A DNA stretch of 64,000 bases from Nitrospirota bacterium (GTDB lineage: Bacteria > Nitrospirota > Thermodesulfovibrionia > Thermodesulfovibrionales > JdFR-88), in NCBI GenBank assembly GCA_014874185.1, contig JACWAF010000005.1, positions 18,655 through 82,654 on the forward strand. Direction: 5' to 3'. Below, in pieces: positions 13,083 to 49,563 of the stretch. Position 1 is the stretch's first letter. Every line of letters starts with the position of its first letter. The translations under genes and the position numbers were made by a program. The notes beneath the pieces were generated by a model. The model worked only from the letters and a program-made list of their open reading frames with translations. It had not been told where the DNA came from and made no database searches.

Positions 13083-13099
13083 CCGGCACGCATATTGCT
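13083..13099 (+). promoter_or_regulatory. sigma54 (-24/-12) promoter of the diguanylate cyclase
   Basis: CCGGCACGCATATTGCT: GG-N10-GC with GGCACG and TTGC. The predicted start site lies very close to ATG 13113. Confidence 0.6.
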
Positions 13100-13112
13100 T
13101 ATCGAAGAAGGG

Positions 13113-15140
13113 ATGTTACATTTAGTTGACATACAGCTTCTCACGAGGGCATTCAAGTCTTTTACTGCTCTTACGGGCCTGAATTTCGCCCTGTACGACG
13201 ACAGGGAAAACCTGGTGATCGCCCCCGCCCGGGAGGACCCCGTGCTCTCGGTAATGAAGACGAGCAGAAAAGGCCAGGAGATATATGCCCGGTTTTTAGA
13301 GGAAAACCTGAAGCTTTCGTCGAAAAAGACAAAGGCGCATCTCGCAAGGGGCCCGGCAGGGCAGTTCCATCTGTTCATTCCCGTGCGCTACAAGGAGATT
13401 AACCTGGTCGCTCTGGGCGAGGCCTTCTATCCGGCCATGGAGGACTTCGTCAGGTTTTATGAAGAGATGGGGCCGGAGTACGGGCTGCTGGAAAAAGACC
13501 CCGTCGAGTGGTCCAGGGAAATAAACGTGCTGCCGGCCGGGACCGCCGAGTGCTATATAGAGGCCATCCAGCCGCTCCTTGAAAACATCATAGCCTCTGG
13601 ATACGAGAAGGGCGAACTGAGCAAGCACTGGCAATGGTCCAAAACCATTATAAACCTGGCCGCGAACATAAAATCAAGCACCTCGCTGAATGAGATAAGG
13701 CAGATGATAATCGACACGGTCATCTTCCTCTTCAACATAGATACGGTCGCGATCTTCTCCCTCCGGGACGGATATTTTTGCCCGGAGGCCGCGGGCGGCA
13801 GAAACAGGGATGTGGTCAGCCGTTTCCGGATAGCCGGGAGCAACAAGTTCATAGCCGGGGCGATGATGTCCGACATCCCCGTTTCGGCAATGGACAGCTA
13901 CAAGCTGTGGCACAACGGCTTCCCGGACGAGATAATCTCGATGTACCTGTTCCCGATATGCTCGGGAACAGGGATGAACGGCTTCCTGGGCGTCTTCAAT
14001 ACCCTCCTGGGCAGGGAGGCCTTCGATTCCATAAACGAGATATGCCGGATAACGGCGTACTTCCTCGACGTGAGAAACATGGGCGAGGAATTCGACAGGA
14101 AGAGCGTCTCCCTCAAGATGCTCACCGAGACGACCTCGCAGCTTTACGAGTTTTACAAGGAGCCGCAGAAGCTGTACGAGAGCATAGTGGCGGAAGCGGC
14201 CAATATAGCCGGGGCCGAGAAATGCTCCCTCATGCTTCCGGAGGACGGGGGCGACGTGCTCGCAATCAGCGCGGTCAAGGGCACAAGCCCCTGGCTGATG
14301 AAGGACGTGAGGGTGAGGAGAGGGGAGGGGATAGCCGGCAAGGTCTATGAACAGGGGGCCCCGATACTTATCGACGGCGAGGAGAGGATGCGGGACTATG
14401 CCGTGAGCCCGAAGCCCCTCTTCAAGACGGCCTCCTGCCTCAGCATGCCGCTGAAGGTGTCCGGCGAGGTTGTGGGGATACTGAACCTCTCGGACAAGCA
14501 GACCGGCGAGTCCTTCTCCGACGCCGACCTCATGGTGCTCGGGCCTTTTGCGCTCCATGCCTCCATACTCCTCAAACTGAGCCATTTCTACAATACGTCC
14601 CAGAAGATGAGGGAGCTTTCCATAACCGACCCGCTCACCGGCCTCTTCAACAGGCGCTATTTCGACGTGCGGCTTGAGGAGGAGTTCCAGCGGGCCAGGA
14701 GATACGGGCTCTCCTTTTCGCTGGCCATAATGGACATAGATGATTTCAAGGCCCTGAACGACACCGAGGGCCACATGGCCGGCGACCACGTCCTGAAGGA
14801 GCTGGCCCTCATAATGAACAGCTCGATCAGGGCAAATGACATCCTGGTGCGCTTCGGGGGCGAGGAGTTCGCCATCATAATGCCCCAGACCTCGAAGGAG
14901 GAGGCCTTCAACGTGGTGGAAAGGATAAGGAGCAACATAAGCACGCTCATGTTCCGGGCCCTGAAGGCATTCCCCGGCAAGAGGCTCACCATAAGCACGG
15001 GGATAGCGATGTACCCGGATGCCGGAGAGCAGATTGAGAAGCTGATCATCTGTTCGGACAGGGCCCTCTACAGGGCCAAGATGGGCGGCAAGAACAGGAG
15101 CGTCCTCTGGGAGCCGGACTGGGGCAGGAGGCCCGGTTAG
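13113..15140 (+). CDS. Sensor diguanylate cyclase (PocR-like/GAF/GAF-GGDEF)
   Basis: TDPLTGLFNRRYF, DIDDFK, RxxD I-site (RAND) five residues before GGEEF, and a GAF with GEGIAGKV. Start may be 13095 or 13113. Confidence 0.88.
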   Translation: MLHLVDIQLLTRAFKSFTALTGLNFALYDDRENLVIAPAREDPVLSVMKTSRKGQEIYARFLEENLKLSSKKTKAHLARGPAGQFHLFIPVRYKEINLVALGEAFYPAMEDFVRFYEEMGPEYGLLEKDPVEWSREINVLPAGTAECYIEAIQPLLENIIASGYEKGELSKHWQWSKTIINLAANIKSSTSLNEIRQMIIDTVIFLFNIDTVAIFSLRDGYFCPEAAGGRNRDVVSRFRIAGSNKFIAGAMMSDIPVSAMDSYKLWHNGFPDEIISMYLFPICSGTGMNGFLGVFNTLLGREAFDSINEICRITAYFLDVRNMGEEFDRKSVSLKMLTETTSQLYEFYKEPQKLYESIVAEAANIAGAEKCSLMLPEDGGDVLAISAVKGTSPWLMKDVRVRRGEGIAGKVYEQGAPILIDGEERMRDYAVSPKPLFKTASCLSMPLKVSGEVVGILNLSDKQTGESFSDADLMVLGPFALHASILLKLSHFYNTSQKMRELSITDPLTGLFNRRYFDVRLEEEFQRARRYGLSFSLAIMDIDDFKALNDTEGHMAGDHVLKELALIMNSSIRANDILVRFGGEEFAIIMPQTSKEEAFNVVERIRSNISTLMFRALKAFPGKRLTISTGIAMYPDAGEQIEKLIICSDRALYRAKMGGKNRSVLWEPDWGRRPG

Positions 15141-16671: not shown

Positions 16672-19302
16672 TTAGAAGACAAGCCCTGCCGGGACGGGCT
16701 TCTGGAAATAAAAGCCCTGCACCTCGTCGCAGCCCAGCGACCTGAGCAAATCCAGCTGGTTCCTCGTCTCCACCCCTTCGGCAACCACCTTCATGTCAAG
16801 GTCGTGCGCAAGCGCGATCACCGCCTTCGAAATGGCCTCGTTGTCCGGATCGACGGTGATGGCGTGCACGAAGGACTTGTCCAGCTTCAACCTGTCTATC
16901 GGAAGGCGTTTCAGATAGCTGAGCGAGGCATACCCCGTACCGAAATCGTCCAGTGAGAGGTGAATCCCCATCCGCTGGAACTCATGCAGGGCCCCGATAA
17001 CGGTCTCGGCGTCCTGCATCAGGGTGCTCTCAGTGAGTTCCAGTTCCAGGCAGCCCGGCTCGAGGCCGGACTCTTCGACTATCTTTTTTATGGTCTGCAC
17101 GATCTCCCGCTGCTTGAACTGCCTCATCGAGAGATTGACGGCTATCCTGACCGGCTGGCATCCAGCTTTCCGCCACTGGGCCCCCTGCCTGCACGCCGTC
17201 TTCAGCACCCATTCGCCTATCGGCACAATCAGCCCGGTCTCCTCGGCAAGCGGGATGAAATCCATCGGGCTCACAAGGCCCAGTTCCGGGTGCATCCAGC
17301 GCAGGAGGGCCTCCATGCCCGCCATCTCCCCCGACGCGAGGTCTATCTGCGGCTGATAATAAAGGACGAACTCGTCCTTTTCTATCGCCTTCCTCAGATT
17401 GCCTTCCAGCCTTATCCTCTCTGAGGAGGCGGCGTTCATGTGTGACGCATAGAACTGAAAGGAGTTCTTTCCCTGCTCTTTGACGTGATACATGGCCGAG
17501 TGCGCGTTCCTGATCAGAGCCTCCGAATCATTCCCGTCAGAGGGGTAGAGGCTTATCCCTATGCTTCCGGTCAGGTAGAACTCGTGCCCCTCCAGCAGGC
17601 AGGCGCGGGTGAGGGCGTCCAGTATCTTCCGGGCTGTTTTCGCCGCATTCTGCGGGCCCTCTATATTCGAGAGCACTATTATGAATTCGTCGCCCCCCTG
17701 GCGGCTTATCGAATCCTCCTCGCGAAGACAGCCGAGGATGCGCTGGGAGATGCGCTTCAGGAGCATATCGCCTTTTTCATGCCCCAGTGTTTCATTGACG
17801 GACTTGAACCTGTCCAGGTCCAGGAACAGGACGGCGGCCTGTTCCCTGTGCCTCCGCGCGTGGGCCAGCGTCTGATTGAAACGCTCATTGAAAAGATGCC
17901 TGTTCGGGAGCCCGGTAAGCGAGTCGTAATAGGAAAGAAGCCATACCTGCTTTTCCGTGCTCATTCTCTCATAGGCCTCCGCAAGCACGTTTGCCGCCGA
18001 TTTGAGAAAACAGAGGTCGTCCTCGTTGAAGGCCCGCCTCTTTGCCGTGTGCGCCCCCAATACCCCGAAGCGTTTCGAGTCTTTTCCCTCCACGGGCACG
18101 CAGATGGAGCTTGCAAGGCCGCATGCCGGATGGCCTGCGGGGAACGCGAACCTGTTCTGCGCGCTTATGTCTTCGATTGCGACCGCCTCTCCCGTCAGGA
18201 GGGCATATCCATGCGGGGCCGTTTCATCCGCGTTTATTCTGAAGCTGCCGGGGGCCTCTATCGGCCAGCCCACGCCGGCCTTCACCAGGAGTTCCTCGCC
18301 CCCCGGCTGAAGTTCAAGCACTTCGGAGCAGTCAACACCCAGGGTAAGACCGACAAGTATGGCGGTCTCGGCCAACAGCTCATCCATCCCGGAGCCCGAG
18401 AGCGCCCTCTGGCCCATCTCGGCTATGGCGGCCTGCTGCCGCTCTCTGGCCCTCAGCTTCGCCTCCGATTCCTTGCGCTCTGTAATGTCCTTGAAGGAGA
18501 CTACCACTCCGGCGATTTCTTTCCCGGCATATATGGGGGTTGCGGTATACACGGCCGGCAAGTGGGAGCCGTCCTTTTTCCGGTAAACTGTCTCGCTTGC
18601 TTCATGGCCTCGGCTGCCGGAGAGGATCCTGCTTACGGGGCATTCGTCTTCGGAGATGAAATTGGGCGGGCCCTGAGGGCCGCAGCTCAGGATCTCATGG
18701 GCGTGCTTCTTCAGCAGCTGGCCCGGCCTGTAGCCCAGCATCGAGGCCCCGGCCGGGTTTATGAAGGCAATCCTGCCCTGGAGGTCCAGTCCGAATATCC
18801 CCTCGGCGGCCGAGTTGAGAATAAGCTCGTTGTACTGCCTCAGCCATTCGTTTTTCTTTGCCGCCTTCCGCTCCTGATGGATCAGGACGTCGACAAAGAT
18901 GCCGAACAGGGTGAAAAGGATGAGGACGGAAAGCCTCACTCCCATGATGTTCCTGTTTGCCGGAACAAAAAACTGCATCAGATTGGCCGGCCTGTGGCCT
19001 GCCTTTTCGATTAGGGATTCAAAAAACCAGTAAAGAATGCCCAGGCCGACCCCGAACCAGCCAAGTTTGTTGCGGAGCTTATCGAAAATGAAATCCTTCA
19101 GTACCCGGCCCTTATTCAGGCCGGGCTCCAGGCTGATCTGTATGGGTTGCGCGCGGGCGGACAAGTCCCGGGCCAATCTCCCGCCTAACCCGGCTGTTTT
19201 AAAAAAAGGCATTCCCGGCACTTCCCCCTGGTCTCTGAAGTGCTCTATTTTAGCATGTCCCCCTTTTGCAAAGCCATTCGTATGTAAATACGTTTCTATC
19301 AT
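16672..19302 (-). CDS. Membrane PAS-GAF-GGDEF-EAL protein
   Basis: Two TM segments, PAS, GAF, GGDEF, EALLRW, DDFGTGY, EGVE. Exact start uncertain. Confidence 0.9.
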   Translation of the reverse strand: MIETYLHTNGFAKGGHAKIEHFRDQGEVPGMPFFKTAGLGGRLARDLSARAQPIQISLEPGLNKGRVLKDFIFDKLRNKLGWFGVGLGILYWFFESLIEKAGHRPANLMQFFVPANRNIMGVRLSVLILFTLFGIFVDVLIHQERKAAKKNEWLRQYNELILNSAAEGIFGLDLQGRIAFINPAGASMLGYRPGQLLKKHAHEILSCGPQGPPNFISEDECPVSRILSGSRGHEASETVYRKKDGSHLPAVYTATPIYAGKEIAGVVVSFKDITERKESEAKLRARERQQAAIAEMGQRALSGSGMDELLAETAILVGLTLGVDCSEVLELQPGGEELLVKAGVGWPIEAPGSFRINADETAPHGYALLTGEAVAIEDISAQNRFAFPAGHPACGLASSICVPVEGKDSKRFGVLGAHTAKRRAFNEDDLCFLKSAANVLAEAYERMSTEKQVWLLSYYDSLTGLPNRHLFNERFNQTLAHARRHREQAAVLFLDLDRFKSVNETLGHEKGDMLLKRISQRILGCLREEDSISRQGGDEFIIVLSNIEGPQNAAKTARKILDALTRACLLEGHEFYLTGSIGISLYPSDGNDSEALIRNAHSAMYHVKEQGKNSFQFYASHMNAASSERIRLEGNLRKAIEKDEFVLYYQPQIDLASGEMAGMEALLRWMHPELGLVSPMDFIPLAEETGLIVPIGEWVLKTACRQGAQWRKAGCQPVRIAVNLSMRQFKQREIVQTIKKIVEESGLEPGCLELELTESTLMQDAETVIGALHEFQRMGIHLSLDDFGTGYASLSYLKRLPIDRLKLDKSFVHAITVDPDNEAISKAVIALAHDLDMKVVAEGVETRNQLDLLRSLGCDEVQGFYFQKPVPAGLVF

Positions 19303-23648: not shown

Positions 23649-23765
23649 AACCCTTCCTGAAAAATCCCGCCCGGAACCATCTCACTTCCAGCCATGGCCC
23701 GCGTTAGCCGGGGGTTTCGGCGGGATTTACAGGCGGCCATTAATAAAAGAACACCCGTCATCATT

Positions 23766-23784
23766 GTCATTCCGGCTTGTCCGG
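23766..23784. repeat. REP-like unit GTCATTCCGGCTTGTCCGG
   Basis: Reverse complement of the copy at 60933-60955. Confidence 0.6.
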
Positions 23785-23837
23785 GAGCTTTCTTGAAAAC
23801 CCCTGCAACGGGAGATTATGAGCGCGCCCCTCCCACA

Positions 23838-23854
23838 TTGGCATGCTGCTTGCT
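23838..23854 (+). promoter_or_regulatory. sigma54 promoter of the first polysaccharide operon
   Basis: TTGGCATGCTGCTTGCT, near-consensus, followed by SD AGGAGG and TTG 23880. Confidence 0.8.
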
Positions 23855-23879
23855 TTCTTTTCTGGAAAGGAGGACCGGA

Positions 23880-24374
23880 TTGAACTGGTACGCCATATAC
23901 GTTAAATCCAGACACGAGTCCATCGCCGAGGCCGATCTGTGCAGAAGGGGGGTGGCAACTTTTCTGCCGCTCATAAACAGGCTCAGGCAATGGAAGGACA
24001 GGAGAAAGATGGTCCAGTTCCCCCTCTTCCCCGGATATCTCTTTGTGAATATAAACCCTGCCGCCCAGGAGATCGTGAACGTGCTCCGGGCCAGGGGGGT
24101 GGTAAACATGCTCTCAAGCCAGGCTGGTGTCCCGGACAGGGTCCCCGACGAGGAGATAAGCTCGTTGAGGATACTGCTTGAACAGGGCGAGGGGATAGAC
24201 GTGTATCCCGCACTCAGGCAGGGGGCCCAGGTGGTCGTAAAAAGCGGGCCCCTGCGCGGCGCAAGGGGGATGGTCATGAAAAAGGAATCGCACTGCATGC
24301 TGCTGGTCAATATAGAGATACTTGGCAGGAGCGTAGGCGTGAAGATATACGCCGAGGACCTCGAAGCGGCCTGA
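23880..24374 (+). CDS. UpxY/RfaH-type NusG-paralog antiterminator
   Basis: NWYAIYVKSRHE, WKDRRK.V..PLFPGYLFV, KOW motif V.VKSGPLRG. Start TTG 23880 after SD. Confidence 0.88.
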   Translation: MNWYAIYVKSRHESIAEADLCRRGVATFLPLINRLRQWKDRRKMVQFPLFPGYLFVNINPAAQEIVNVLRARGVVNMLSSQAGVPDRVPDEEISSLRILLEQGEGIDVYPALRQGAQVVVKSGPLRGARGMVMKKESHCMLLVNIEILGRSVGVKIYAEDLEAA

Positions 24375-25756: not shown

Positions 25757-25926
25757 TGAAGACATACAGGCGCGCAAAGGATCGCTTTAACAGGGACTAC
25801 CATTTGTCGTCCGGGCTTGCCAAACGGCGGCTGAAAGAGATAACCGGGCTGAATCCGCACTACATAGCCGCTTTCATAACGGGGCTCCTGTTTGCGGTCC
25901 TGCTCATTAAGTTAGTGGCGCAATAA
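25753..25926 (+). CDS. Small 57-aa membrane protein (not in ORF track)
   Basis: MMKTYRRAKDRFNRDYHLSSGLAKRRLKEITGLNPHYIAAFITGLLFAVLLIKLVAQ*. ATGA overlap upstream and TAATG overlap downstream. Confidence 0.65.
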   Translation: MMKTYRRAKDRFNRDYHLSSGLAKRRLKEITGLNPHYIAAFITGLLFAVLLIKLVAQ

Positions 25927-27107
25927 TGAACAGCGGGCGTCTTAAGGGCGTGTCCCTGTATATACCATTTCACAAGCCCTATATAACGGAAGAGGAGATC
26001 TGCGGGGTTGTGGACTCGCTGCGCTCGGGCTGGCTCACGATGGGTCCGAAGACCCTCCGTTTCGAAGAGGCCTTTGCCAGGTACACGGGGGCGGCCCACG
26101 CCGTTTCGGTCAATTCCTGCACCGCCGCGCTCCACATGGCCCTGAAGGCGATCGGGCTCGCGGAGGGGGACGAGGCGATAGTCCCGGCGGTCACCTTCAC
26201 GGCCACCGCGGAGGTACTCTCCTATTTCAAGGCCGTCCCGGTCTTTGCCGAAGTGGAGGCCAGGACCCATAACATGAACGCGCTAAACCTGGAACGCCAC
26301 ATCACCCCCAGGACCAGGGCGATACTTCCGGTGCACTTTGCCGGCCAGCCCTGCGACATGGACGAGATAAGAGAACTGGCCCGCAGATACAGGCTCTTTG
26401 TCATAGAGGACGCGGCCCATTCGCTGCCCGCCGTTTACCGCGAGAACAGGATCGGCGGCACCGGCGACATGACCTGTTTCAGCTTTTACGCCACGAAGAC
26501 ACTCGCGGCCGGCGAGGGCGGGATGGTCACGACCGGCAATCCGGAGTGGGCCGGCAGGATGCGGACGCTGCGCCTGCACGGGATCTCGAATGACGCATGG
26601 AAGAGATATTCCAGGGGGGGCTCCTGGTATTACGAAGTAATGGAGCCCGGCTGGAAATACAATATGACGGACATTCAGGCGGCCCTGGGGCTGGCGCAGC
26701 TCGGAAAAGTCGACTGGATGCGCGACATGCGCGCCGAGATCGCGGGGAGGTACACGGACGCGTTCAGGCATGACGAGGAACTCATCGTCCCTTATGTCAA
26801 GCCCGACCGGGAAAGCGCCTGGCACCTTTACGTGCTGAAACTGAACCTTGACATGCTCCGGATCGGAAGGGACCGGTTCATAAGCGAGATGGAAGAGCGG
26901 GGCGTCGGGGCATCGGTCCACTTCATACCCCTTTACAGGCAGCCCTATTACAGGGACGCTTACGGTTGCCAGGCAAAGGATTATCCCGTCTCCGAGTGGA
27001 TATATGAAAGGGTGCTGTCTCTGCCAATATATCCGGGCATGATGCGGGAAGACGTCGATGCCGTAATCGAAGTAATTAAATACCTGATAAAGAAATTCAG
27101 GAGATGA
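25926..27107 (+). CDS. DegT/DnrJ/EryC1/StrS sugar aminotransferase
   Basis: SGWLTMGP, NSCTAALH, IEDAAH, FSFYATK, GEGGM. Confidence 0.92.
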   Translation: MNSGRLKGVSLYIPFHKPYITEEEICGVVDSLRSGWLTMGPKTLRFEEAFARYTGAAHAVSVNSCTAALHMALKAIGLAEGDEAIVPAVTFTATAEVLSYFKAVPVFAEVEARTHNMNALNLERHITPRTRAILPVHFAGQPCDMDEIRELARRYRLFVIEDAAHSLPAVYRENRIGGTGDMTCFSFYATKTLAAGEGGMVTTGNPEWAGRMRTLRLHGISNDAWKRYSRGGSWYYEVMEPGWKYNMTDIQAALGLAQLGKVDWMRDMRAEIAGRYTDAFRHDEELIVPYVKPDRESAWHLYVLKLNLDMLRIGRDRFISEMEERGVGASVHFIPLYRQPYYRDAYGCQAKDYPVSEWIYERVLSLPIYPGMMREDVDAVIEVIKYLIKKFRR

Positions 27108-27694
27108 AGAGACTTTTCGACCTGGCCCTCTCATTCGCAAGCCTGATTGCCCTCTTCCCGTTTTTCGTCCTGATAGCCGCCCTGATCGTGATTGAAAGCG
27201 AAGGCCCGGCCTATTTCAGGCAGGAGAGGGTGGGCCGGAATTTCCGCCCCTTTTATATCTACAAATTCCGCACCATGCACCTCAAGGACAGGAGCGCGGG
27301 GCCGCTAGTCACGGCCCAGGGGGACAAGCGCGTGACCCGGGTGGGCAAATACCTGAGAAGATACAAGATAGACGAACTCCCGCAGCTTCTGAATATCCTT
27401 AAGGGCGACATGAGCTTCGTCGGCCCCCGCCCCGAGGTAATGAAATACGTCGAACTTTTCCAGGATGATTACGCGAAGATACTGGCGGTAAGGCCCGGCC
27501 TTACCGATCCCGCGTCAATAAAGTTCCGCAATGAGGAGGACATCCTTTCGGCCTCCGGCAACTGGGAGAGGGATTACATCGACATTATCCTGCCGGAAAA
27601 GCTGAGGCTCTCGGGCAAATACCTTGAGAACAGGTCGTTCACCGGCGATATCGCGCTGATGATTGATACGGCAAGAGGGTTCCTGCGAAAATGA
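27104..27694 (+). CDS. Initiating phosphoglycosyl transferase (PglC/WcaJ C-terminal type)
   Basis: MKRLFD, KFRTM, DELPQL.N...[16 protein letters not shown]. Confidence 0.9.
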
Positions 27695-29769
27695 AGACCT
27701 CACAGAGGCTTGTCTACAACTCGATAGAAAGGCTTGTCATACGGAAAAGGCGGATCGTGATCAGCCTTTTCCTTCTGGTGCAGGCCGCGCTTGCCAATTA
27801 CCTGGCTTTTATCCTGAGGCATGATTCAATCCTCAAGTACGAGGACCTTGGCGAATTCCTGCGTTTTCTCCCCCTGGTGGTGGCCGTCAGGATGCTCCTC
27901 TATCTGAAGGCCGGGCTTTACAAGAGCCTGTGGCGGTATGCCAGCGTAGAGGACCTGGTAAAAATAATAAAGACCTCAACCATGGGCAGCCTCATCCTGC
28001 TGGTTTCGATAAGGTATCTCTTCGGAGACGTCAATTATCCCCGTTCGGTATATCTGCTGGACTGGGCGCTCTTTATCCTGATCGCGGGCGGCACAAGGCT
28101 CCTGCTGAGGATTTTCAGGGAGTACATGCGGCACGAGCCAGGGCTGAAGAGGGTTCTGATCATAGGGGCTTCCGATGCGGGCGAGATGCTGGTCAGAGAG
28201 ATAAAGGGCAACCCCATGCACGGATACGAGCCCGTTGGCTTCATCGACGAGGACCCATACAAGAAGGGGCTTACCATCCACGGGGTGCCCATATTCGGCA
28301 AATATAACGCAATACCCAAAGTGATTAGCAGGTATAAGCCCGACGAGGTGCTGGTGGCGGCCAGCAACGGCAATCTGAAGAATATCTATGACCTTTGCAA
28401 GCCCTTCAATGTGAGCGTAAAAAAACTGCCGCGGCTCTCGGATATCCTGGACGGAAACATCTCCGTCTCGGCCAAGCTGGGCCAGCTGCTGGTGGAGGCC
28501 AATATGGTGACAGGGGCCCAGGTGCATGAGGCCCTGGAATATCAGAGGAAAGAGGGCGGCAGGTTCGGGGCCAAGCTGATAAAGCTGGGCTATATAAGCG
28601 AGGAGCACCTGGTCTCCTTCCTCAACAAGCAGTTCAGGGTCTCGCAGATCAAGCCCCTGCAGCTTGAGGACCTCCTCCAGAGGGAGCCCGTCAGGACGGA
28701 CATAAAGCTGCTGAGGGACTTCATCGAGGGCAAGTCCGTCCTGGTGACCGGGGCGGGCGGCTCCATAGGCTCGGAACTCTGCAGACAGATTGTAAAATAC
28801 GACCCCTCCGTGCTCGTCATGCTGGACCGTTATGAAAACAGCCTTTTTTACGTGGACAGGGAATTAAGGGAGGCCGCCCCGGGCGCGAATATAAAAACCG
28901 TCATCTGTGACATCCAGGACAGGCATGGGCTTGAGAAGCTGTTTGCGGCCTGCACGCCCGGCATCGTCTTCCACTCCGCGGCCTACAAGCACGTGCCGCT
29001 TATGGAGCACAACCCGGTAGAGGCGGCCAAAAACAATATATTCGGCACCAGCAACCTCCTTGAAACCTCCCGCAAGTACGAGGCGGACAGCTTTGTGACC
29101 ATTTCCACCGACAAGGCCGTGAACCCCACCAGCATAATGGGTGCGACAAAACGGGTGGCCGAGCTGCTTACCATCAACATGAATTCCGCGTCAAGGAAGA
29201 CGAAATTCACCGCCGTCCGCTTTGGGAACGTGCTCGGCACAAACGGAAGCGTGGTGCCGATCTTCAGGAGGCAGCTCCAGAAAGGCGGCCCCCTCACCGT
29301 CACCCACCCCGAGATGAAGCGATTCTTCATGCTCATCCCGGAAGCCATGCAGCTTGTCCTCATAGCCGCCGCCGCGGGGCGGGGCGGGGAAATTTTCGTT
29401 CTGGACATGGGAGAGCAGATAAAGATAACCGACCTGGCCGAAAACCTCATACGGCTCTCCGGGTTCATTCCCCACGAGGAGATAAAAATAGAATTCACGG
29501 GCCTGAGGCCCGGCGAAAAGCTTTATGAAGAACTCTTCAACCCCGATGAGAATATACTGCCCACCTTTCACGAGAAGCTGAGGATGGCCGTCTCTGACGT
29601 GCCCGCCATCCATCCGCACCACCTCTCGGAACTGGAAGGTTATGTGAAGGAGATGTCCGTGGAAGGGGTGATAGGATGGATACGGACTTTTGTCCCGAGG
29701 TACAAGCCCCAGCCGGCAGCCGGGCAGGAGGCCGTCCTCACGGCAAAGGACCTGCCCGTAAAGGCCTGA
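27691..29769 (+). CDS. CapD/PglF-type membrane UDP-GlcNAc 4,6-dehydratase with inserted MshEN module
   Basis: Four TM segments, GAS.AG domain, EDLL.RE, TGAGGSIGSELCRQ, AAYKHVP, ISTDKAV, RFGNVLG, GLRPGEKLYEEL. Insert at 28471-28638. Confidence 0.92.
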   Translation: MKTSQRLVYNSIERLVIRKRRIVISLFLLVQAALANYLAFILRHDSILKYEDLGEFLRFLPLVVAVRMLLYLKAGLYKSLWRYASVEDLVKIIKTSTMGSLILLVSIRYLFGDVNYPRSVYLLDWALFILIAGGTRLLLRIFREYMRHEPGLKRVLIIGASDAGEMLVREIKGNPMHGYEPVGFIDEDPYKKGLTIHGVPIFGKYNAIPKVISRYKPDEVLVAASNGNLKNIYDLCKPFNVSVKKLPRLSDILDGNISVSAKLGQLLVEANMVTGAQVHEALEYQRKEGGRFGAKLIKLGYISEEHLVSFLNKQFRVSQIKPLQLEDLLQREPVRTDIKLLRDFIEGKSVLVTGAGGSIGSELCRQIVKYDPSVLVMLDRYENSLFYVDRELREAAPGANIKTVICDIQDRHGLEKLFAACTPGIVFHSAAYKHVPLMEHNPVEAAKNNIFGTSNLLETSRKYEADSFVTISTDKAVNPTSIMGATKRVAELLTINMNSASRKTKFTAVRFGNVLGTNGSVVPIFRRQLQKGGPLTVTHPEMKRFFMLIPEAMQLVLIAAAAGRGGEIFVLDMGEQIKITDLAENLIRLSGFIPHEEIKIEFTGLRPGEKLYEELFNPDENILPTFHEKLRMAVSDVPAIHPHHLSELEGYVKEMSVEGVIGWIRTFVPRYKPQPAAGQEAVLTAKDLPVKA

Positions 29770-29770
29770 A

Positions 29771-31096
29771 ATGGCAGCCGTCACTGGGGCAAATGTACTG
29801 ATAGCCGATGACGAGCCCAATGCCCTGAGGGTGCTCTCGGCAATCCTCTCCAAAGAGGGATACGATGTCCGCGAGTCAGCCGACGTGGAATCGGCGATCA
29901 AGGCGCTCTCCAACCGTGATGTGGATGCCGTGATAACCGATCTCCGGATGCCAGGCAAGGACGGCATGCAGCTCTTCGATTTCATCCTGGAGAACCACCC
30001 GGAGGTGCCCGTTATTTTTCTGACCGCCTACGGGACGGTGGAATCAGCGGTGGGCGCCATGACACGCGGGGCCTTTTACTATTTCATAAAGCCTCCGGAC
30101 TACGAAAAGCTCAAGGGCGTCCTGGCCAGGGCCGTGGAGCAGCACCGTTTGAAAACAGGACTCTCCGTTGAGCGCGCCGGATCCAACCCTCTCAGGATCG
30201 TGGGCAGCAGCCCGGGCATCCAGAAGATATTCGGGATAATGGATTCCGTGAAGGACTCTGAAAGCAGCGTCCTCATAAAAGGCGAGACCGGCACTGGCAA
30301 GGAGATGATAGCGAGGACCCTGCATTTCGGGAGCGTCCGGAGGGACATGCCATTTACGGCCGTGAACTGCGCGGCCATTCCAGGCGAACTCATGGAATCG
30401 GAACTGTTCGGCTATGAAAGGGGGGCCTTTACCGGGGCCGTCTCGAGGAGGATAGGAAAGTTCGAGGAAGCGGATGCGGGCACCGTCTTCCTGGACGAAA
30501 TAAGCGAGCTGGAACTCCCGCTGCAGGCAAAACTCCTCCGCGTCCTCCAGGAGAGGGAGATCGAAAGGATCGGAAGCAGCAGGAAGATAAAGGTCAGGTT
30601 CAGGCTGGTATGCTCCACGAACCGCGACTTGTCCCATGAGGTGGCGGAAGGGCGCTTCAGGGAGGACCTCTATTACCGGATAAACGTTGTGCAGATAGAC
30701 GTCCCACCCCTGAGGGAGAGGACCGGGGACATACCGCTTCTGGCATCTGAGTTCCTGGACGAGTTCTGCCGCAGGGAGGCGAAATGCCTCTCCATCGCCG
30801 AAGAAGTGCTGCCCATGCTTGGCAGGTATCAGTGGCCGGGCAACATCCGGCAGCTTAAAAACATGATCGAGAGGGCCGTGGTGCTGGCCGAAGGCGGGGT
30901 GATAACCGGCCGGGAACTCCCGGACGAGCTGCAATCCTTCGGGAGAAGGATACTCACGCCCATAAAGACCCTGAAGGAGATGGAATTGCAGGCAATAAAA
31001 AATACCCTCAAGGCGTGCAGGGGAAACAAGTCGAAGGCGGCCAGGCTGCTCGGGATATCCCGGAAGGCCTTTTACAGGAGGCTGAGGGAATGCTGA
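29771..31096 (+). CDS. sigma54-dependent response regulator (REC-AAA-Fis)
   Basis: GETGTGKE, GAFTGA, WPGNIRQL, Fis-type HTH. Close paralog of 15297-16670. Confidence 0.92.
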   Translation: MAAVTGANVLIADDEPNALRVLSAILSKEGYDVRESADVESAIKALSNRDVDAVITDLRMPGKDGMQLFDFILENHPEVPVIFLTAYGTVESAVGAMTRGAFYYFIKPPDYEKLKGVLARAVEQHRLKTGLSVERAGSNPLRIVGSSPGIQKIFGIMDSVKDSESSVLIKGETGTGKEMIARTLHFGSVRRDMPFTAVNCAAIPGELMESELFGYERGAFTGAVSRRIGKFEEADAGTVFLDEISELELPLQAKLLRVLQEREIERIGSSRKIKVRFRLVCSTNRDLSHEVAEGRFREDLYYRINVVQIDVPPLRERTGDIPLLASEFLDEFCRREAKCLSIAEEVLPMLGRYQWPGNIRQLKNMIERAVVLAEGGVITGRELPDELQSFGRRILTPIKTLKEMELQAIKNTLKACRGNKSKAARLLGISRKAFYRRLREC

Positions 31097-31641: not shown

Positions 31642-31662
31642 CGGGGCTGAAAGGAGATGGCG

Positions 31663-32436
31663 ATGAAGGCCGTTATACTTGCCGGCGGGCTTGGCACAAG
31701 GCTGGCCGAAGAGACCGTGACCAAGCCAAAGCCCATGGTCGAAGTGGGCGGGAAACCGATGCTCTGGCACATTATGAACATCTACTCCGCCTACGGCATA
31801 GACGAGTTCATAATAGCCGTGGGCTACAGGGCCGAGGCCATAAAAAAATATTTCCTTAACTTCTACGCCATCAACAACGATATCACGATAGACCTCTCGC
31901 ACGGAGAGACCATAGTGCACGGCGGAAACCAGCCCAAATGGAAGGTGCATGTAGTGGATACGGGGCTTTATACCCAGACGGGCGGCAGGCTCCGCCGCCT
32001 TAGGAAATGGCTTGAGGATGAGGATTTGTTCATGTTCACCTACGGCGACGGAGTGGCGGACGTGAATGTCCGTGAGCTGCTCGCCTTCCACCGTTCCCAT
32101 GGCAGGCTGGCCACGGTCACCACGGTGCGCTCTCCGGCGCGGTTTGGAAGGATCTCATTCGACGGCGACCGGATCACCGATTTCTACGAGAAGCCCCAAT
32201 CCGGAGAGGGCTGGATTAACGGGGGGTATTTTATCCTCTCCCCGGCCGTCCTGGACTACATAGAGGCGGACGACACGGTCTGGGAGCGCGGCCCGGTAGA
32301 AAGGCTGGCCAGCGAGAAACAGCTTGCAGGATACAGGCACTACGGGTTCTGGTCCTGCATGGACACCTTAAAGGAAAAAAATTACCTCGAAGACCTCTGG
32401 AATTCGGGCAAGGCGCCCTGGGTGGTCTGGGCCTGA
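31663..32436 (+). CDS. rfbF: Glucose-1-phosphate cytidylyltransferase
   Basis: MKAVILAGGLGTRL.EET..KPKPMVE, TGGRL, TYGDG, FWSCMDT. SD AAGGAG favours ATG 31663. Confidence 0.9.
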   Translation: MKAVILAGGLGTRLAEETVTKPKPMVEVGGKPMLWHIMNIYSAYGIDEFIIAVGYRAEAIKKYFLNFYAINNDITIDLSHGETIVHGGNQPKWKVHVVDTGLYTQTGGRLRRLRKWLEDEDLFMFTYGDGVADVNVRELLAFHRSHGRLATVTTVRSPARFGRISFDGDRITDFYEKPQSGEGWINGGYFILSPAVLDYIEADDTVWERGPVERLASEKQLAGYRHYGFWSCMDTLKEKNYLEDLWNSGKAPWVVWA

Positions 32437-33647
32437 TGATAACGGCGGATTTTCTGGTAATAGGCGGGGGGATTATCGGCCTGACCGCCGCGCGCGAGCT
32501 GAAAAAGACATATCCGGGCTCCAAGGTGGTGCTCATCGAAAAGGAGCCCGATTGCGGCCTGCACGCAAGCGGCCGCAACAGCGGCGTGCTCCATGCAGGC
32601 TTCTATTACACGAAAGACACAATGAAGGCGAAATTCACCAGGGAGGGCAACCGGGCCCTTACAGAGTATTGCGAGTCCAGGAGAATACCCGTAAACAGGT
32701 GCGGAAAGCTTGTAGTCGCCAGAAACCAGAGCGAGCTGGCTTCGCTGCGCGAACTCCTCGAAAGGGGAAAGACCAACGGGATAGAACTGCACGAGATACC
32801 CGAGGCGGAGGCCAGAAAGATAGAGCCCCGCGTAAAGACGTTCGGCAGCGCTCTCTTCTCCCCCACCACTTCCACCGTAAACCCCGTGCAGGTGATGCGG
32901 GAGATGAAAAACGACGCGATACGCGAGGGCATAAAGGTCCATACCGGTGTGAGATATACCGGCAGGAACGGGAAATCGGTAAAGACTAGCGCGGGCGACT
33001 ACCAGGCCGCTTACCACGTGAACGCCGCGGGCCTTTACGCCGACAAGATTGCCAGGGACTTCGGCTTTTCGGAGAACTACTGCCTCCTGCCGTTCAAGGG
33101 CATTTATCTGTACTCCGACGAGCCGCCCGGCTCGGTCAGGACCAACGTCTACCCAGTCCCGGACCTTGGGAACCCGTTCCTGGGCGTGCACTTTACAGTC
33201 ACCTCAGAACGGAAGATAAAGATCGGCCCCACGGCCATCCCGGCATTCTGGCGGGAGCAGTATGGCATGCTGGACAATTTCTCGCTGACCGAGCTTATGG
33301 AGATAGTGGCGCGCGAGTTTACGCTTTTCCTTTCCTCGAAATTCGACTTCAGGAGACTGGCCCTTGAGGAGATGAAGAAATATTCCAGGAACTACATGGT
33401 CTCGCTTGCATCCAGTCTCCTCAGCGGCGTCAACAGGGACGTCTTCAACAGGTGGGCCCGGCCCGGCATAAGGGCCCAGCTCGTAAACACGAAAGAAAAA
33501 AGGCTGGAGATGGACTTCGTGCTGGAAGGCGACGAGGGTTCCATGCACGTGCTGAACGCGGTCTCGCCCGCCTTCACTTGCTCGATGCCTTTTGCGAGGC
33601 ACATCTGCGCGGAAATAAAAAAGCGGATCAACCAGGAGCGCCAATGA
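32436..33647 (+). CDS. LhgO-like FAD-dependent oxidoreductase
   Basis: IGGGIIG, SGRNSGVLHAG.YY, YPVPD...PFLGVH, GIRAQ, SPAFT. Confidence 0.85.
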   Translation: MITADFLVIGGGIIGLTAARELKKTYPGSKVVLIEKEPDCGLHASGRNSGVLHAGFYYTKDTMKAKFTREGNRALTEYCESRRIPVNRCGKLVVARNQSELASLRELLERGKTNGIELHEIPEAEARKIEPRVKTFGSALFSPTTSTVNPVQVMREMKNDAIREGIKVHTGVRYTGRNGKSVKTSAGDYQAAYHVNAAGLYADKIARDFGFSENYCLLPFKGIYLYSDEPPGSVRTNVYPVPDLGNPFLGVHFTVTSERKIKIGPTAIPAFWREQYGMLDNFSLTELMEIVAREFTLFLSSKFDFRRLALEEMKKYSRNYMVSLASSLLSGVNRDVFNRWARPGIRAQLVNTKEKRLEMDFVLEGDEGSMHVLNAVSPAFTCSMPFARHICAEIKKRINQERQ

Positions 33648-38544: not shown

Positions 38545-38552
38545 GGTGATGA

Positions 38553-39395: not shown

Positions 39396-39399
39396 GGAC

Positions 39400-44082: not shown

Positions 44083-44105
44083 CACCCGTCCATTCAGGAG
44101 GCAAA

Positions 44106-45332: not shown

Positions 45333-45397
45333 ACAAGCTCACAAGGGTCTTGCGCAATGGCTATTCAGTCGTAATAACTTCAACGAAGGAGGAGAAT

Positions 45398-46705: not shown

Positions 46706-46713
46706 GCGGCCCG

Positions 46714-49556: not shown

Positions 49557-49563
49557 GGAAAAG

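What the first reader, a model, noticed from the sequence alone, without database searches (positions are those of the whole stretch)
28465..28644. MshEN c-di-GMP-binding module inserted inside a CapD/PglF sugar dehydratase
Seen: residues 261-316 contain KLGQLLVEANMVTGAQVHEALEYQ-RKEGG-RFGAKLIKLGYISEEHLVSFLNKQ, two 24-aa motifs joined by a 5-aa linker. They interrupt the linker LSDILDGNISVS...VSQIKPLQLEDLL and are flanked by a GTCTCG direct repeat (28465-28470, 28639-28644). Established: this matches the MshEN pattern RLGxxLLxxGLVxxxxLxxxLxxQ x2 known from PilB/MshE/GspE ATPases and some glycosyltransferases. CapD/PglF enzymes make the 4-keto-6-deoxy precursor for the linker sugar. Inference: a PilB-like N-terminus was grafted in, putting an early step of glycan synthesis under allosteric c-di-GMP control. 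A cyclase and a GGDEF-EAL gene lie 9-15 kb away. Caveat: motif 1 has R>K and G>N and motif 2 has L>F, so binding is not guaranteed.
Basis: partly seen in the sequence, partly recalled or inferred. Interest (0 to 1): 0.85.

Follow-up and report, generated by a model that had tools for sequence, protein, structure and literature searches.

The report
c-di-GMP sensor module inside sugar dehydratase
A membrane enzyme that makes the first modified sugar for a cell-surface glycan carries, spliced into the linker between its domains, a small module known from pilus motors to bind the bacterial signal c-di-GMP, which suggests that this signal controls sugar-precursor supply directly.

Summary
ORF 27691-29769 (+, 692 aa) is a PglF/CapD-type membrane UDP-GlcNAc 4,6-dehydratase. 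A clean 58-aa insertion (residues 261-318, 28471-28644) sits in its interdomain linker.

Residues 262-314 match NCBIfam NF053729, the 53-residue MshE-type c-di-GMP motif, over the whole model (59.4 bits, cut-off 38). They also match V. cholerae MshE (5HTL) at E 4.6e-9. The predicted four-helix bundle superposes on 5HTL at 0.9 A. Pfam's "MshEN" model gives no hit because it covers the C-terminal subdomain, which is absent here.

The insert is not an assembly chimera. All 120 closest homologues carry it, as do 8 of 400 other sampled genomes of the phylum and 27 named Nitrospirota MAG loci. It traces to one origin, and its ligand-contact residues are conserved.

The GTCTCG repeat is at chance level. 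The nearby GGDEF genes were not found in the flanks examined in three relatives.

Binding and allosteric control remain untested. I found no paper describing this architecture. I rate it a new variant of a known kind, of moderate to high interest.

The parts
27691..29769 (+). PglF/CapD-type membrane UDP-GlcNAc 4,6-dehydratase gene with the inserted MshEN_N module (692 aa, P0001)
   Evidence: ORF. Pfam Polysacc_synt_2 E 2.2e-114 and CoA_binding_3 E 6.6e-15. Best PDB match is C. jejuni PglF 5bju, E 4e-82.
27691..28140 (+). N-terminal membrane region (residues ~1-150, four long helices)
   Evidence: The AlphaFold2 model has helices 2-43, 50-74, 86-110 and 118-147. This layout is typical of PglF/WbpM/CapD proteins (recalled).
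27913..28416 (+). Rossmann-like CoA_binding_3 domain (residues 75-242)
   Evidence: Pfam PF13727, 56 bits against a cut-off of 25.
28471..28644 (+). 58-aa insertion (residues 261-318) in the interdomain linker; limits ambiguous by about 2 residues
   Evidence: Alignment with 49 insert-less representatives shows a clean 58-column gap. Insert-less hits align in two stretches, the second starting at query ~316-319.
28474..28545 (+). MshEN motif I (K262-Q285)
   Evidence: NF053729 positions 1-24. Aligned to VcMshE R9-Q32.
28546..28560 (+). 5-residue spacer RKEGG (286-290)
   Evidence: G289 is invariant and E288 and G290 are at least 90% conserved in 121 sequences.
28561..28632 (+). MshEN motif II (R291-Q314)
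   Evidence: NF053729 positions 30-53. Aligned to VcMshE R38-Q61.
28738..29586 (+). SDR-type catalytic domain (Polysacc_synt_2, residues 350-632), with NAD motif TGAGGSIG 353-360
   Evidence: Foldseek of the full model against 5bju/5bjx gives target TM-score 0.93.
29107..29115 (+). Catalytic T473-D474-K475, equivalent to C. jejuni PglF T395/D396/K397
   Evidence: Aligned 'ISTDKAV' is identical to 5bju. PDB titles name the T395V and D396N/K397A variants. The three residues are invariant in 121 homologues.
25926..27107 (+). DegT/PglE-like sugar aminotransferase, same operon
   Evidence: Pfam DegT_DnrJ_EryC1 E 1.7e-126. It overlaps the next gene by 4 nt. Synteny is kept in 6 of 8 relatives.
27104..27694 (+). 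Small PglC-like phosphoglycosyl transferase (Bac_transf, 196 aa); overlaps the dehydratase start by 4 nt
   Evidence: Pfam PF02397 E 6.5e-57. It is fused to the dehydratase in 7 of 120 homologues.
29771..31096 (+). Sigma-54-dependent response regulator, starting 2 nt after the dehydratase stop
   Evidence: Pfam Response_reg, Sigma54_activat and HTH_8. It lies directly downstream in 6 of 8 relatives.
13095..15140 (+). PocR-GAF-GGDEF diguanylate cyclase candidate
   Evidence: Pfam. Not found near the gene in three relatives' flanks.
16672..19302 (-). PAS-GAF-GGDEF-EAL protein
   Evidence: Pfam. Not found near the gene in three relatives' flanks.
28465..28470 (+).
   Evidence: 36 matches in the window against 29.3 expected. 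The residues are not conserved in relatives.
28639..28644 (+). GTCTCG (Val317-Ser318), second copy; judged coincidental

Best explanation
The gene encodes a PglF-type, membrane-anchored UDP-GlcNAc 4,6-dehydratase. This enzyme catalyses the first committed step toward a bacillosamine-like 4-amino-4,6-dideoxy sugar. The adjacent aminotransferase and PglC-like phosphoglycosyl transferase would use that sugar to start a surface glycan. A stand-alone MshEN_N module, the 53-residue four-helix c-di-GMP-binding unit of MshE/PilB ATPases, was inserted once, long ago, into the flexible linker between the membrane-proximal Rossmann-like domain and the catalytic domain. A Thermodesulfovibrionia (Nitrospirota) clade has kept it under selection.

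Shown here: the identity and limits of the insert; its predicted fold; conservation of the ligand-contact residues; intact catalytic motifs; single origin; the operon context.

Inferred: the module binds one c-di-GMP (my estimate about 0.75). Binding orders the bundle and changes the geometry or oligomeric state of the tethered catalytic domain, so dehydratase output, and with it initiation of the glycan, follows cellular c-di-GMP. By analogy with NfrB, BcsA and other c-di-GMP-activated polysaccharide enzymes, I expect activation at high c-di-GMP. The direction is a guess.
For: Module identity:
- NF053729 scores 59.4 bits against a cut-off of 38, over model positions 1-53 of 53.
- phmmer against c-di-GMP-bound MshE 5htl gives E 4.6e-9, with no gaps across the motif.
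- The insert-only AF2 model (pLDDT 84.3) has 5htl_B as its best Foldseek hit: rmsd 0.9 A over 54 columns, query TM-score 0.72, prob 1.00. Next come the c-di-GMP-bound T. thermophilus PilF GSPII-B structures.

Contact residues named in Wang 2016, mapped:
- Identical: L10=L263, G11=G264, L29=L282, Q32=Q285, R38=R291, G40=G293, G47=G300, L54=L307, L58=L311, Q61=Q314.
- Conservative: R9>K262, L25>V278, L39>F292.
- None of the changes listed for the non-binding XpsE (G11V, L29R, R38G, G40L, L54H, L58C, Q61V) is present.
- Lys at the R9 position gives KD 6 nM in PilF GSPII-B, and K167R weakens binding. DgPilB2 (13.5 nM) and CtPilB (53 nM) also carry Lys (PMC11731258, passages read).
- Isolated VcMshEN_N 1-62 binds with KD 0.35 uM without the C subdomain.

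Selection across 121 clade members:
- G264 and G293 are kept in 121 of 121; Q285 and L311 in 120 of 121.
- No row has a gap in 262-314.
- Identity to P0001 is 0.60 in the insert, against 0.48 in the TM region and 0.54 in the Rossmann-like domain.

Not an artefact:
- NF053729 hits 70 of 70 members scanned (P0001 plus 69 homologues). The other 50 of the 120 listed homologues show the tandem motif by regex (49) or by position-specific residue counts only (P0120, P0121).
- Full-span matches occur in 9 of 401 genomes of the phylum, including the window's own.
- 27 of 80 named loci have the motif flanked by both PglF halves.
- Logan contigs bridge both junctions with 0 differences. These runs may be the source sample.
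- Single origin: with insert columns removed, 27 insert-bearing rows form one side of a branch against 49 insert-less rows, SH-aLRT 100.

Enzyme intact: TGAGGSIG, STDK and M483 are invariant.

Pathway context: the DegT, Bac_transf and dehydratase genes overlap by 4 nt, and this synteny is kept in 6 of 8 relatives.

Precedent: c-di-GMP binding to the MshEN domain of the glycosyltransferase NfrB is required for its function (PMC8669469, passages read).
Against: - No binding or activity data exist, and none can be produced here.
- Motif I has Asn at the G18 position. This falls outside even the relaxed [GAS] pattern of Wang 2016. Asn is the commonest residue there in the clade (60 of 121, with Gly in 37). 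M. xanthus PilB (3jc8) has it too, but I did not find binding data for an Asn-bearing module.
- F292 replaces L39 of the leucine triangle. It is rare in the clade (2 of 121), so this particular protein could bind more weakly than its relatives.
- Asp108 of MshEN_C, which also contacts the ligand in MshE, has no counterpart.
- Foldseek E-values for the 71-residue model are weak (9e-3), as expected for so short a query.
- AF2 gives low confidence at the junction (residues 253-261, pLDDT below 50) and I could not inspect coordinates. No structural route from the module to the active site is shown.
- GGDEF genes were not found near the gene in the flanks of three relatives, so there is no conserved local cyclase partner.
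- Pfam gives no MshEN hit. This is explained by the model's coverage.
Confidence: 0.62

Rival explanations
1. The insert is a MshEN_N-derived helical bundle that no longer binds c-di-GMP. It serves as a structural spacer or a protein-protein docking site, for example for the PglC-like transferase or a PilZ-like partner, as some GspE/PilB N-domains do.
For: Non-binding MshEN-like domains exist, such as XpsE. The X. citri PilB N-domain binds PilZ (PDB 7lkm titles among the fold hits). N271 lies outside the published relaxed motif. MshEN_C is missing.
Against: None of the XpsE-type disabling substitutions is present. The residues conserved best across 121 homologues are exactly the ligand-contact ones: G264, G293, Q285, L311, L282 and R/K291. 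The curated c-di-GMP-motif HMM is passed with a 21-bit margin. The isolated MshEN_N subdomain suffices for binding in MshE.
Confidence: 0.2
2. The module binds c-di-GMP but does not tune catalysis. Instead it controls localisation or assembly of the initiation complex (dehydratase, aminotransferase and phosphoglycosyl transferase), or it signals to the co-transcribed sigma-54 response regulator.
For: The insert sits on low-confidence, presumably flexible tethers, away from the catalytic core. Fusions with the Bac_transf enzyme in 7 of 120 homologues argue for a physical initiation complex. A sigma-54 response regulator lies directly downstream in 6 of 8 relatives.
Against: Nothing directly. 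This differs from the best explanation only in the output step, which no tool here can resolve. The characterised MshEN fusion enzymes (MshE, PilB, NfrB) are described as allosterically controlled.
Confidence: 0.12
3. The module's physiological ligand is another cyclic dinucleotide, such as 3'3'-cGAMP.
For: VcMshEN also binds cGAMP, more weakly (section heading and Figure 1h legend of PMC5013675).
Against: The window itself encodes GGDEF and GGDEF-EAL proteins. All characterised MshEN modules read here are c-di-GMP receptors. No cGAMP synthase was looked for.
Confidence: 0.04
4. The insert is an assembly chimera between a pilB N-terminus and a capD/pglF gene.
For: Metagenome-assembled genome in 42 contigs. 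The genome's own PilB-like gene has a related motif, 27 of 53 identical.
Against: The same in-frame architecture occurs in all 120 listed homologues, in 8 other genomes of 400 sampled and in 27 independently assembled named MAG loci. The insert is only 51% identical to the genome's own PilB motif. Separately built Logan contigs span both junctions without differences (these may come from the source sample).
Confidence: 0.01

Closest known systems
MshEN_N c-di-GMP-binding subdomain of V. cholerae MshE (PDB 5HTL), T. thermophilus PilF GSPII-B (8PDK) and PilB ATPases
   Same: It has the same 24+5+24-residue tandem motif. 10 of 15 named positions are identical to MshE, 3 differ conservatively (K262, V278, F292) and 2 differ otherwise (Q265, N271). 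The predicted four-helix bundle superposes on 5HTL at 0.9 A. Lys at motif-I position 1 matches the high-affinity PilF GSPII-B, DgPilB2 and CtPilB domains.
   Different: It is not N-terminal and not attached to a T2SSE ATPase. It is an internal insertion with both ends tethered. It lacks the MshEN_C subdomain, so there is no Asp108 equivalent. It has Asn at the G18 position and Phe at the L39 position.
E. coli NfrB (GT2 glycosyltransferase with C-terminal MshEN domain), a c-di-GMP-activated exopolysaccharide synthase
   Same: An MshEN-type receptor is fused to a membrane enzyme of surface-glycan synthesis. The insert hits the NfrB NCBIfam model at positions 482-539, E 2.1e-6. In NfrB, binding is required for function (PMC8669469).
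   Different: NfrB is a processive polymerising glycosyltransferase with a terminal MshEN domain. Here the host enzyme is a nucleotide-sugar 4,6-dehydratase acting upstream of any transferase, and the module is internal.
C. jejuni PglF (WlaL; PDB 5BJU) and the CapD/WbpM/PglF family of membrane UDP-GlcNAc 4,6-dehydratases
   Same: It has the 4-TM, Rossmann-like and SDR catalytic layout. The catalytic domain matches 5BJU at E 4e-82 (42% identity in the Foldseek alignment) with identical ISTDKAV and GAGGxIGSELC motifs. The model superposes at target TM-score 0.93. Its neighbours are PglE-like and PglC-like genes.
   Different: PglF and 147 of the 150 best cluster representatives have no insert at this linker. 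No cyclic-dinucleotide control is described for this family in the papers I searched.
PilZ- or I-site-type c-di-GMP control of polysaccharide synthases (BcsA, Alg44, PelD, PgaCD); recalled, with BcsA also mentioned in PMC10118264
   Same: The logic is the same: c-di-GMP gates production of a surface or extracellular glycan post-translationally.
   Different: Those receptors act at polymerisation or export and use unrelated binding domains. Here the predicted control point is nucleotide-sugar precursor modification.

Membership tests
MshEN_N c-di-GMP-binding module (NCBIfam NF053729; Wang et al. 2016) | Match to the curated 53-position HMM above its cut-off | tested here: met
   59.4 bits on the whole protein and 63.5 bits on the 80-aa fragment, against a cut-off of 38, over model positions 1-53 of 53. 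63.9 bits in the six-frame genome scan.
MshEN_N c-di-GMP-binding module (NCBIfam NF053729; Wang et al. 2016) | Two 24-residue motifs separated by a 5-residue spacer | tested here: met
   K262-Q285, RKEGG, R291-Q314. No gaps in this span in 121 of 121 clade members.
MshEN_N c-di-GMP-binding module (NCBIfam NF053729; Wang et al. 2016) | Gly of the (R/K/L)LG turn in both motifs (VcMshE G11, G40), whose mutation abolishes binding | tested here: met
   G264 and G293, each kept in 121 of 121.
MshEN_N c-di-GMP-binding module (NCBIfam NF053729; Wang et al. 2016) | Two hydrophobic triangles that stack on the guanines (L25-L29-L39 and L10-L54-L58) | tested here: met
   V278-L282-F292 and L263-L307-L311. 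All are hydrophobic, with two conservative changes. The clade majority is I/L/L and L/L/L.
MshEN_N c-di-GMP-binding module (NCBIfam NF053729; Wang et al. 2016) | First motif residue R, K or L (extended consensus of PMC11731258) and terminal Gln (Q32, Q61) | tested here: met
   K262, R291, Q285 and Q314.
MshEN_N c-di-GMP-binding module (NCBIfam NF053729; Wang et al. 2016) | Small residue ([GAS]) at motif position 10 (VcMshE G18, G47) | tested here: inconclusive
   Motif II has G300. Motif I has N271, outside the relaxed pattern [GAS]. Asn is the commonest residue there in the clade (60 of 121) and occurs in M. xanthus PilB 3jc8. The effect on binding is unknown.
MshEN_N c-di-GMP-binding module (NCBIfam NF053729; Wang et al. 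2016) | Four-helix-bundle fold of MshEN_N | tested here: met
   AF2 predicts helices 260-269, 275-288, 292-298 and 304-313. The insert-only model's top Foldseek hit is 5htl_B, rmsd 0.9 A and query TM-score 0.72. This is a prediction, not an experiment.
MshEN_N c-di-GMP-binding module (NCBIfam NF053729; Wang et al. 2016) | Specific binding of c-di-GMP | not testable with these tools
   Needs ITC, DRaCALA or MST on purified protein.
Full MshEN / T2SSE_N domain (Pfam PF05157; MshEN_N plus MshEN_C) | Presence of the MshEN_C alpha/beta subdomain | tested here: not met
   No PF05157 hit on the protein or on the insert even at E up to 10. In the genome's own PilB-like protein PF05157 covers residues 81-166, downstream of the 53-residue motif at 28-80. 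There is room for only 58 residues here. The insert is therefore not a full MshEN domain, only its N subdomain.
PglF/CapD/WbpM membrane UDP-GlcNAc 4,6-dehydratases (Pfam PF02719 Polysacc_synt_2) | Polysacc_synt_2 SDR domain with a Gly-rich NAD(P) motif | tested here: met
   PF02719 scores 382 bits against a cut-off of 20.2. TGAGGSIG 353-360 is conserved.
PglF/CapD/WbpM membrane UDP-GlcNAc 4,6-dehydratases (Pfam PF02719 Polysacc_synt_2) | PglF catalytic Thr-Asp-Lys (T395/D396/K397) and M405 | tested here: met
   T473-D474-K475 and M483 align with 5bju. Residue numbers come from the PDB titles. All four are invariant in 121 sequences.
PglF/CapD/WbpM membrane UDP-GlcNAc 4,6-dehydratases (Pfam PF02719 Polysacc_synt_2) | N-terminal transmembrane helices plus a Rossmann-like (CoA_binding_3) domain | tested here: met
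   PF13727 covers residues 75-242. Four long N-terminal helices appear in the model. No dedicated TM predictor was run.
PglF/CapD/WbpM membrane UDP-GlcNAc 4,6-dehydratases (Pfam PF02719 Polysacc_synt_2) | UDP-GlcNAc 4,6-dehydratase activity | not testable with these tools
   Needs an enzyme assay. The PseB and FnlA equivalog models score below their cut-offs (191.7 against 407.75; 147.8 against 730), so it is neither of those subtypes.
NfrB-type c-di-GMP-activated glycosyltransferases | Family-2 glycosyltransferase catalytic domain | tested here: not met
   No glycosyltransferase domain was found in P0001. Only the MshEN part of the NfrB model is matched. It is not a member; the resemblance is functional only.

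The most novel reading that the evidence does not exclude
c-di-GMP binds the inserted MshEN_N module and allosterically switches a nucleotide-sugar enzyme, the UDP-GlcNAc 4,6-dehydratase that commits precursor to a bacillosamine-type glycan. Second-messenger control of surface-glycan synthesis would then act at precursor supply and initiation rather than at polymerisation, export or transcription. This would be the first cyclic-dinucleotide-regulated nucleotide-sugar dehydratase. It would also show that the 53-residue MshEN_N unit works as a portable internal 'cassette' with both ends tethered.
Probability: 0.45. Interest if true: 0.75.

Novelty: new variant of a known kind. Interest (0 to 1): 0.6.

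Why it matters
Known c-di-GMP control points for polysaccharides are synthases, co-polymerases, export components and transcription factors. A receptor module built into a PglF-type dehydratase would add a new class of target, nucleotide-sugar precursor commitment. It would also give uncultured Thermodesulfovibrionia, which encode GGDEF/EAL proteins, a concrete c-di-GMP output.

The case also shows a practical blind spot. Pfam's "MshEN" model covers the C-terminal subdomain, not the ligand-binding 53 residues. Architecture searches based on Pfam therefore miss MshEN_N-only insertions like this one, and the repertoire of c-di-GMP receptors is probably under-counted.

The prediction is cheap to test. 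A 60-70-residue peptide, or the soluble domain, can be expressed and titrated. PglF assays are established.

Tried and rejected
Considered and rejected:
- Pfam scan of the whole protein and of the insert alone gave no MshEN hit, only a sub-threshold DUF4388 match (17 bits against a cut-off of 25). I do not take this as evidence against the module, because PF05157 models the C subdomain.
- The GTCTCG repeat as a target-site duplication or graft scar. It is at chance frequency and the residues are not conserved in relatives.
- A conserved local cyclase partner. tblastn with the window's GGDEF and GGDEF-EAL proteins found nothing in the 8 relatives' loci or in the extended flanks of G118, G232 and G310. 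Only those regions were examined.
- Assembly chimera. See the rivals.

Led nowhere:
- The protein-atlas search on residues 240-345 gave no usable hit.
- The look-up of sequencing runs listed no RNA holder. Three DNA runs from one study held the stretch, and these may be the source sample. Nothing can be said about expression.
- Complex prediction was not used. I claim no protein-protein binding, and a ligand cannot be the scored partner.
- I could not inspect model coordinates, so I did no contact analysis between the insert and the catalytic domain.

Literature, with what I saw:
- Listings only: MshEN; six-term search (20 of 97 papers listed, none with MshEN among those listed); MshEN+dehydratase, 1 unrelated paper; c-di-GMP+PglF, 2 unrelated; MshEN+Nitrospir, 5; MshEN+epimerase, 6; MshEN+domain architectures+polysaccharide, 10.
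- Passages or sections read: PMC5013675 (sections 10, 12 and 31 plus found passages), PMC12943098, PMC11731258, PMC12448109, PMC8669469, PMC12564702 and PMC10118264.
- None describes MshEN in a dehydratase.
- Supplementary Tables 3-5 and Supplementary Fig. 3 of Wang 2016 list MshEN architectures.

Full report
**What is there.** The finding lies in ORF 27691..29769 on the + strand (692 aa, P0001).
- Pfam finds CoA_binding_3 at residues 75-242 and Polysacc_synt_2 at 350-632 (E 2.2e-114).
- The best solved relative is C. jejuni PglF (WlaL, 5bju), E 4e-82, aligned from P0001 residue 322 to chain residue 3.
- The aligned catalytic segment ISTDKAV is identical to PglF. PDB titles name T395, D396/K397 and M405 as the mutated catalytic residues. 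Here these are T473, D474, K475 and M483, all invariant in 121 homologues, as are most residues of the NAD motif TGAGGSIG (the rest at least 90% conserved).
- An AlphaFold2 model built on those 121 sequences (pLDDT 84.5) has four long N-terminal helices, a Rossmann-like domain and the SDR domain. It superposes on PglF at target TM-score 0.93.
- The host protein is thus an apparently functional PglF/CapD-type membrane UDP-GlcNAc 4,6-dehydratase.

**The insert.**
- It reads K262-Q285, then RKEGG, then R291-Q314 (window 28474-28632).
- Alignment against 49 insert-less representatives shows a clean 58-column gap opposite residues ~261-318. The flanks are the family's continuous ...DGxhSV | xQIRxhxhEDLL... 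linker.
- In the representative library (1.84 billion proteins clustered at 50% identity), 38,622 proteins hit at E up to 1e-3.
- Among the best 150, only three align through the insert: P0005, P0122 and the N-truncated P0123. The other 147 are at most 49% identical and align in two or three stretches, the main one starting at about query 307-322 in 146 of them.
- An HMM that I built from the insert columns finds it in 3 of 150.

**Is it MshEN?**
- Pfam says nothing, even on the insert alone at E up to 10.
- The NCBIfam domain model NF053729 ('cyclic di-GMP-binding domain-containing protein, MshE-related', 53 positions) matches end to end at 59.4 bits against a cut-off of 38.
- The discrepancy is explained by the genome's own PilB-like ATPase. 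There NF053729 covers residues 28-80, while Pfam PF05157 'MshEN' covers 81-166. The Pfam model describes the C-terminal subdomain, not the ligand-binding motif.
- The insert also hits solved MshEN-type domains by sequence: T. thermophilus PilF 3e-12, M. xanthus PilB 2.8e-9 and c-di-GMP-bound V. cholerae MshE 5htl 4.6e-9.
- An insert-only AF2 model (10-sequence alignment A3, pLDDT 84.3) is a four-helix bundle. Its best Foldseek match is 5htl_B: rmsd 0.9 A over 54 columns, query TM-score 0.72, prob 1.00, E 9e-3. Next come the c-di-GMP-bound PilF GSPII-B structures.

**Residue by residue.** I used the alignment, in which VcMshE residue m corresponds to P0001 residue m+253, and the residues named in Wang et al. 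2016 (PMC5013675, sections 10 and 12 and figure legends).
- Identical: L10, G11, L29, Q32, R38, G40, G47, L54, L58 and Q61.
- Changed: R9>K262, D12>Q265 (a backbone contact in MshE), G18>N271, L25>V278 and L39>F292.
- None of the substitutions that disable XpsE is present.
PilF GSPII-B has Lys at this position and binds at 6 nM. K167R weakens binding. DgPilB2 (13.5 nM) and CtPilB (53 nM) also have Lys. The authors extend the consensus to (R/K/L)LG.
- N271 falls outside the relaxed [GAS] class of Wang 2016. It is nevertheless the commonest residue in the clade (N 60, G 37 of 121) and is also found in M. xanthus PilB. Its effect is unknown.
- F292 is rare in the clade (L 108, I 10, F 2).
- Only MshEN_N is present. 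Wang et al. report that isolated VcMshEN_N 1-62 binds with KD 0.35 uM.

**Not an artefact, and old.**
- The 120 best hits in the 5.8-billion-protein collection are 57-65% identical and 652-938 aa long. Where named, they come from Nitrospirota, Thermodesulfovibrionales or Ca. Sulfobium MAGs.
- My regex (relaxed motif plus N) finds the tandem motif in 50 of 121 sequences. NF053729 hits 70 of 70 scanned, namely P0001 plus 69 of the 71 regex failures; P0120 and P0121 were not scanned.
- No row has a gap within 262-314.
- A six-frame scan of 401 genomes of the phylum with residues 231-350 gives full-span matches (query 2-120, at least 127 bits) in 9, counting the window's own genome. Three of the four other genomes of its family have it, as do three more in the same order and two in the same class. 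The next matches drop to 78 bits and are PilB-type N-termini.
- In the named species-representative genomes, 27 of 80 loci returned have the motif flanked by both PglF halves. All 27 are titled as Nitrospirae, Nitrospirota, Thermodesulfovibrionia or -ales, Nitrospiraceae, Ca. Sulfobium or 'uncultured Nitrospira' MAGs. That scan used one peptide pattern and is not exhaustive.
- With the insert columns removed, a quick IQ-TREE tree (76 rows, LG+G4) puts all 27 insert-bearing rows on one side of a branch with SH-aLRT 100. This is consistent with one acquisition. The root is not inferred.
- Logan contigs from three runs of one mine-drainage study span both junctions with no differences. They may come from the source sample, so they test the assembly only.
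- Selection: the ligand-contact positions are the best conserved (G264 and G293 in 121 of 121; Q285 and L311 in 120 of 121; R/K at 291 in 120 of 121). The insert is more conserved than the TM and Rossmann-like parts (identity to P0001 0.60 against 0.48 and 0.54; catalytic domain 0.71).

**Context.**
- The genes are, in order: DegT/PglE-like aminotransferase (25926-27107), small Bac_transf/PglC-like phosphoglycosyl transferase (27104-27694), the dehydratase, and a sigma-54 response regulator (29771-31096). The first three overlap by 4 nt; the regulator starts 2 nt after the dehydratase stop.
- Upstream are a NusG-like protein, UDP-glucose dehydrogenase, a histidine kinase and GlmS.
- Downstream are nucleotide-sugar enzymes, Wzm/Wzt-like ABC transporter genes, glycosyltransferases, a hexapeptide acyltransferase and a Wzy_C/O-antigen-ligase-family protein.
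- The block NusG-like, UGDH, DegT, PGT, dehydratase, sigma-54 regulator recurs in 6 of 8 relatives (UGDH or the NusG-like gene not detected in two of them). Two more distant relatives have other sugar genes alongside.
- In 7 of 120 homologues the PGT is fused to the dehydratase N-terminus.
They were not found in the relatives' regions that I examined.
- The genome (2.43 Mb, 42 contigs) has seven loci above the NF053729 cut-off, including two T2SSE ATPases. It has only one membrane PglF-type gene, plus two soluble Polysacc_synt_2 proteins.

**How it most likely works.**
- Shown: a conserved, apparently competent MshEN_N module is tethered by low-confidence linkers (residues 253-261 have pLDDT below 50) between the membrane-proximal domain and the catalytic domain of an intact dehydratase. 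That enzyme heads a glycan-initiation operon.
- Inferred: the module binds one c-di-GMP, and the resulting ordering changes the position or oligomeric state of the catalytic domain. Precursor commitment would then follow c-di-GMP levels.
- By analogy with NfrB, where MshEN binding is required for glycosyltransferase function (PMC8669469), I expect activation.
- The rivals are a non-binding docking or spacer module, a ligand-dependent assembly or localisation role, another dinucleotide as ligand, and an assembly chimera. They are scored in their own section.

**Comparison and novelty.**
- The module belongs to the MshEN_N kind. It is not a full MshEN domain, because the C subdomain is absent.
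- The enzyme belongs to the PglF/CapD family.
- The protein is not an NfrB-type enzyme, but it may work like one.
- Wang 2016's main text lists MshEN fusions to ATPase, glycosyltransferase, REC, HD-GYP, CheA, CheX, cyclase and Ser/Thr kinase domains, and no dehydratase.
- Searches pairing MshEN or c-di-GMP with dehydratase, PglF, epimerase, Nitrospir* or domain architectures found nothing on this architecture.
- I therefore rate it a new variant of a known kind. It is real, conserved and testable, and if the inference holds it would add a new class of c-di-GMP target. Interest is 0.6.

Noticed in passing
protein ids P0035, P0060, P0073, P0080, P0081, P0109, P0118; P0122; L026 (G244, 930-aa open frame): In 7 of the 120 closest homologues, and in one 50%-cluster representative, the PglC-like Bac_transf phosphoglycosyl transferase is fused to the N-terminus of the MshEN-bearing dehydratase (~890-938 aa). 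This argues that the two enzymes act as one membrane initiation complex.
   Followed up: partly
G000 C1:15520-17418 (L012) and Pfam PF05157 in general: Pfam's model named 'MshEN' (PF05157, 90 positions) matches residues 81-166 of the genome's PilB-like ATPase. The 53-residue c-di-GMP motif (NF053729) lies at 28-80. Pfam-based searches therefore cannot see MshEN_N-only modules such as this insert.
   Followed up: yes
G000: C42:21618-22655 (L013), C30:293409-294863 (L016), C37:30216-31268 (L014), C1:22682-23650 (L015), C39:40812-42476 (L017): The 2.43-Mb genome has seven loci above the NF053729 cut-off. Besides two T2SSE ATPases and the dehydratase there are a DUF4388+T2SSG protein, a DUF4388-DnaJ-TPR protein and two ~320-350-aa proteins with only MshEN. 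That is an unusually rich set of putative c-di-GMP receptors for a small genome.
   Followed up: partly
window 29771-31096 (+): A sigma-54-dependent response regulator starts 2 nt after the dehydratase stop and lies directly downstream in 6 of 8 relatives. A second, similar regulator (15297-16670) sits between the GGDEF and GGDEF-EAL genes. Whether either binds c-di-GMP in the manner of FleQ was not examined.
   Followed up: no
NCBIfam TIGR03029 (EpsG) against P0001 residues 260-319: The insert matches positions 2-62 of the model for the PEP-CTERM-system chain-length-determinant tyrosine kinase EpsG (E 1e-7 on the fragment). That kinase family would then also carry an N-terminal MshEN_N-like motif.
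   Followed up: no
window 31657-50916: Downstream lies a long glycan locus. It includes an NTP-transferase, an FAD oxidoreductase, an epimerase, a C-methyltransferase, a dTDP-sugar 3,5-epimerase, DUF4910/DUF2172, a short-chain dehydrogenase and Wzm/Wzt-like ABC transporter genes (38553-40737). It also has methyltransferase, GT1, GDSL, Laminin_G_3/fn3, hexapeptide acyltransferase, two GT2 and Wzy_C/O-antigen-ligase-family genes. ORF 42041-42847 (268 aa) has no Pfam hit.
   Followed up: partly
window 23694-24374 (+): A NusG-domain protein (226 aa) sits at the head of the glycan operon and is conserved there in 6 of 8 relatives. It resembles the operon-specific NusG/RfaH/UpxY-type antiterminators of polysaccharide loci (a recalled analogy).
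   Followed up: no
G157:C9:53505-53747 (L029), G262:C68:93556-93783 (L030) and other rows: PilB-type N-termini in other genomes of the same order are up to 62-63% identical to the insert over query 27-91. That is closer than the window genome's own PilB-like protein (46% in the same search; 27 of 53 identical over the motif). It fits a donor within the lineage, not the resident pilB.
   Followed up: no
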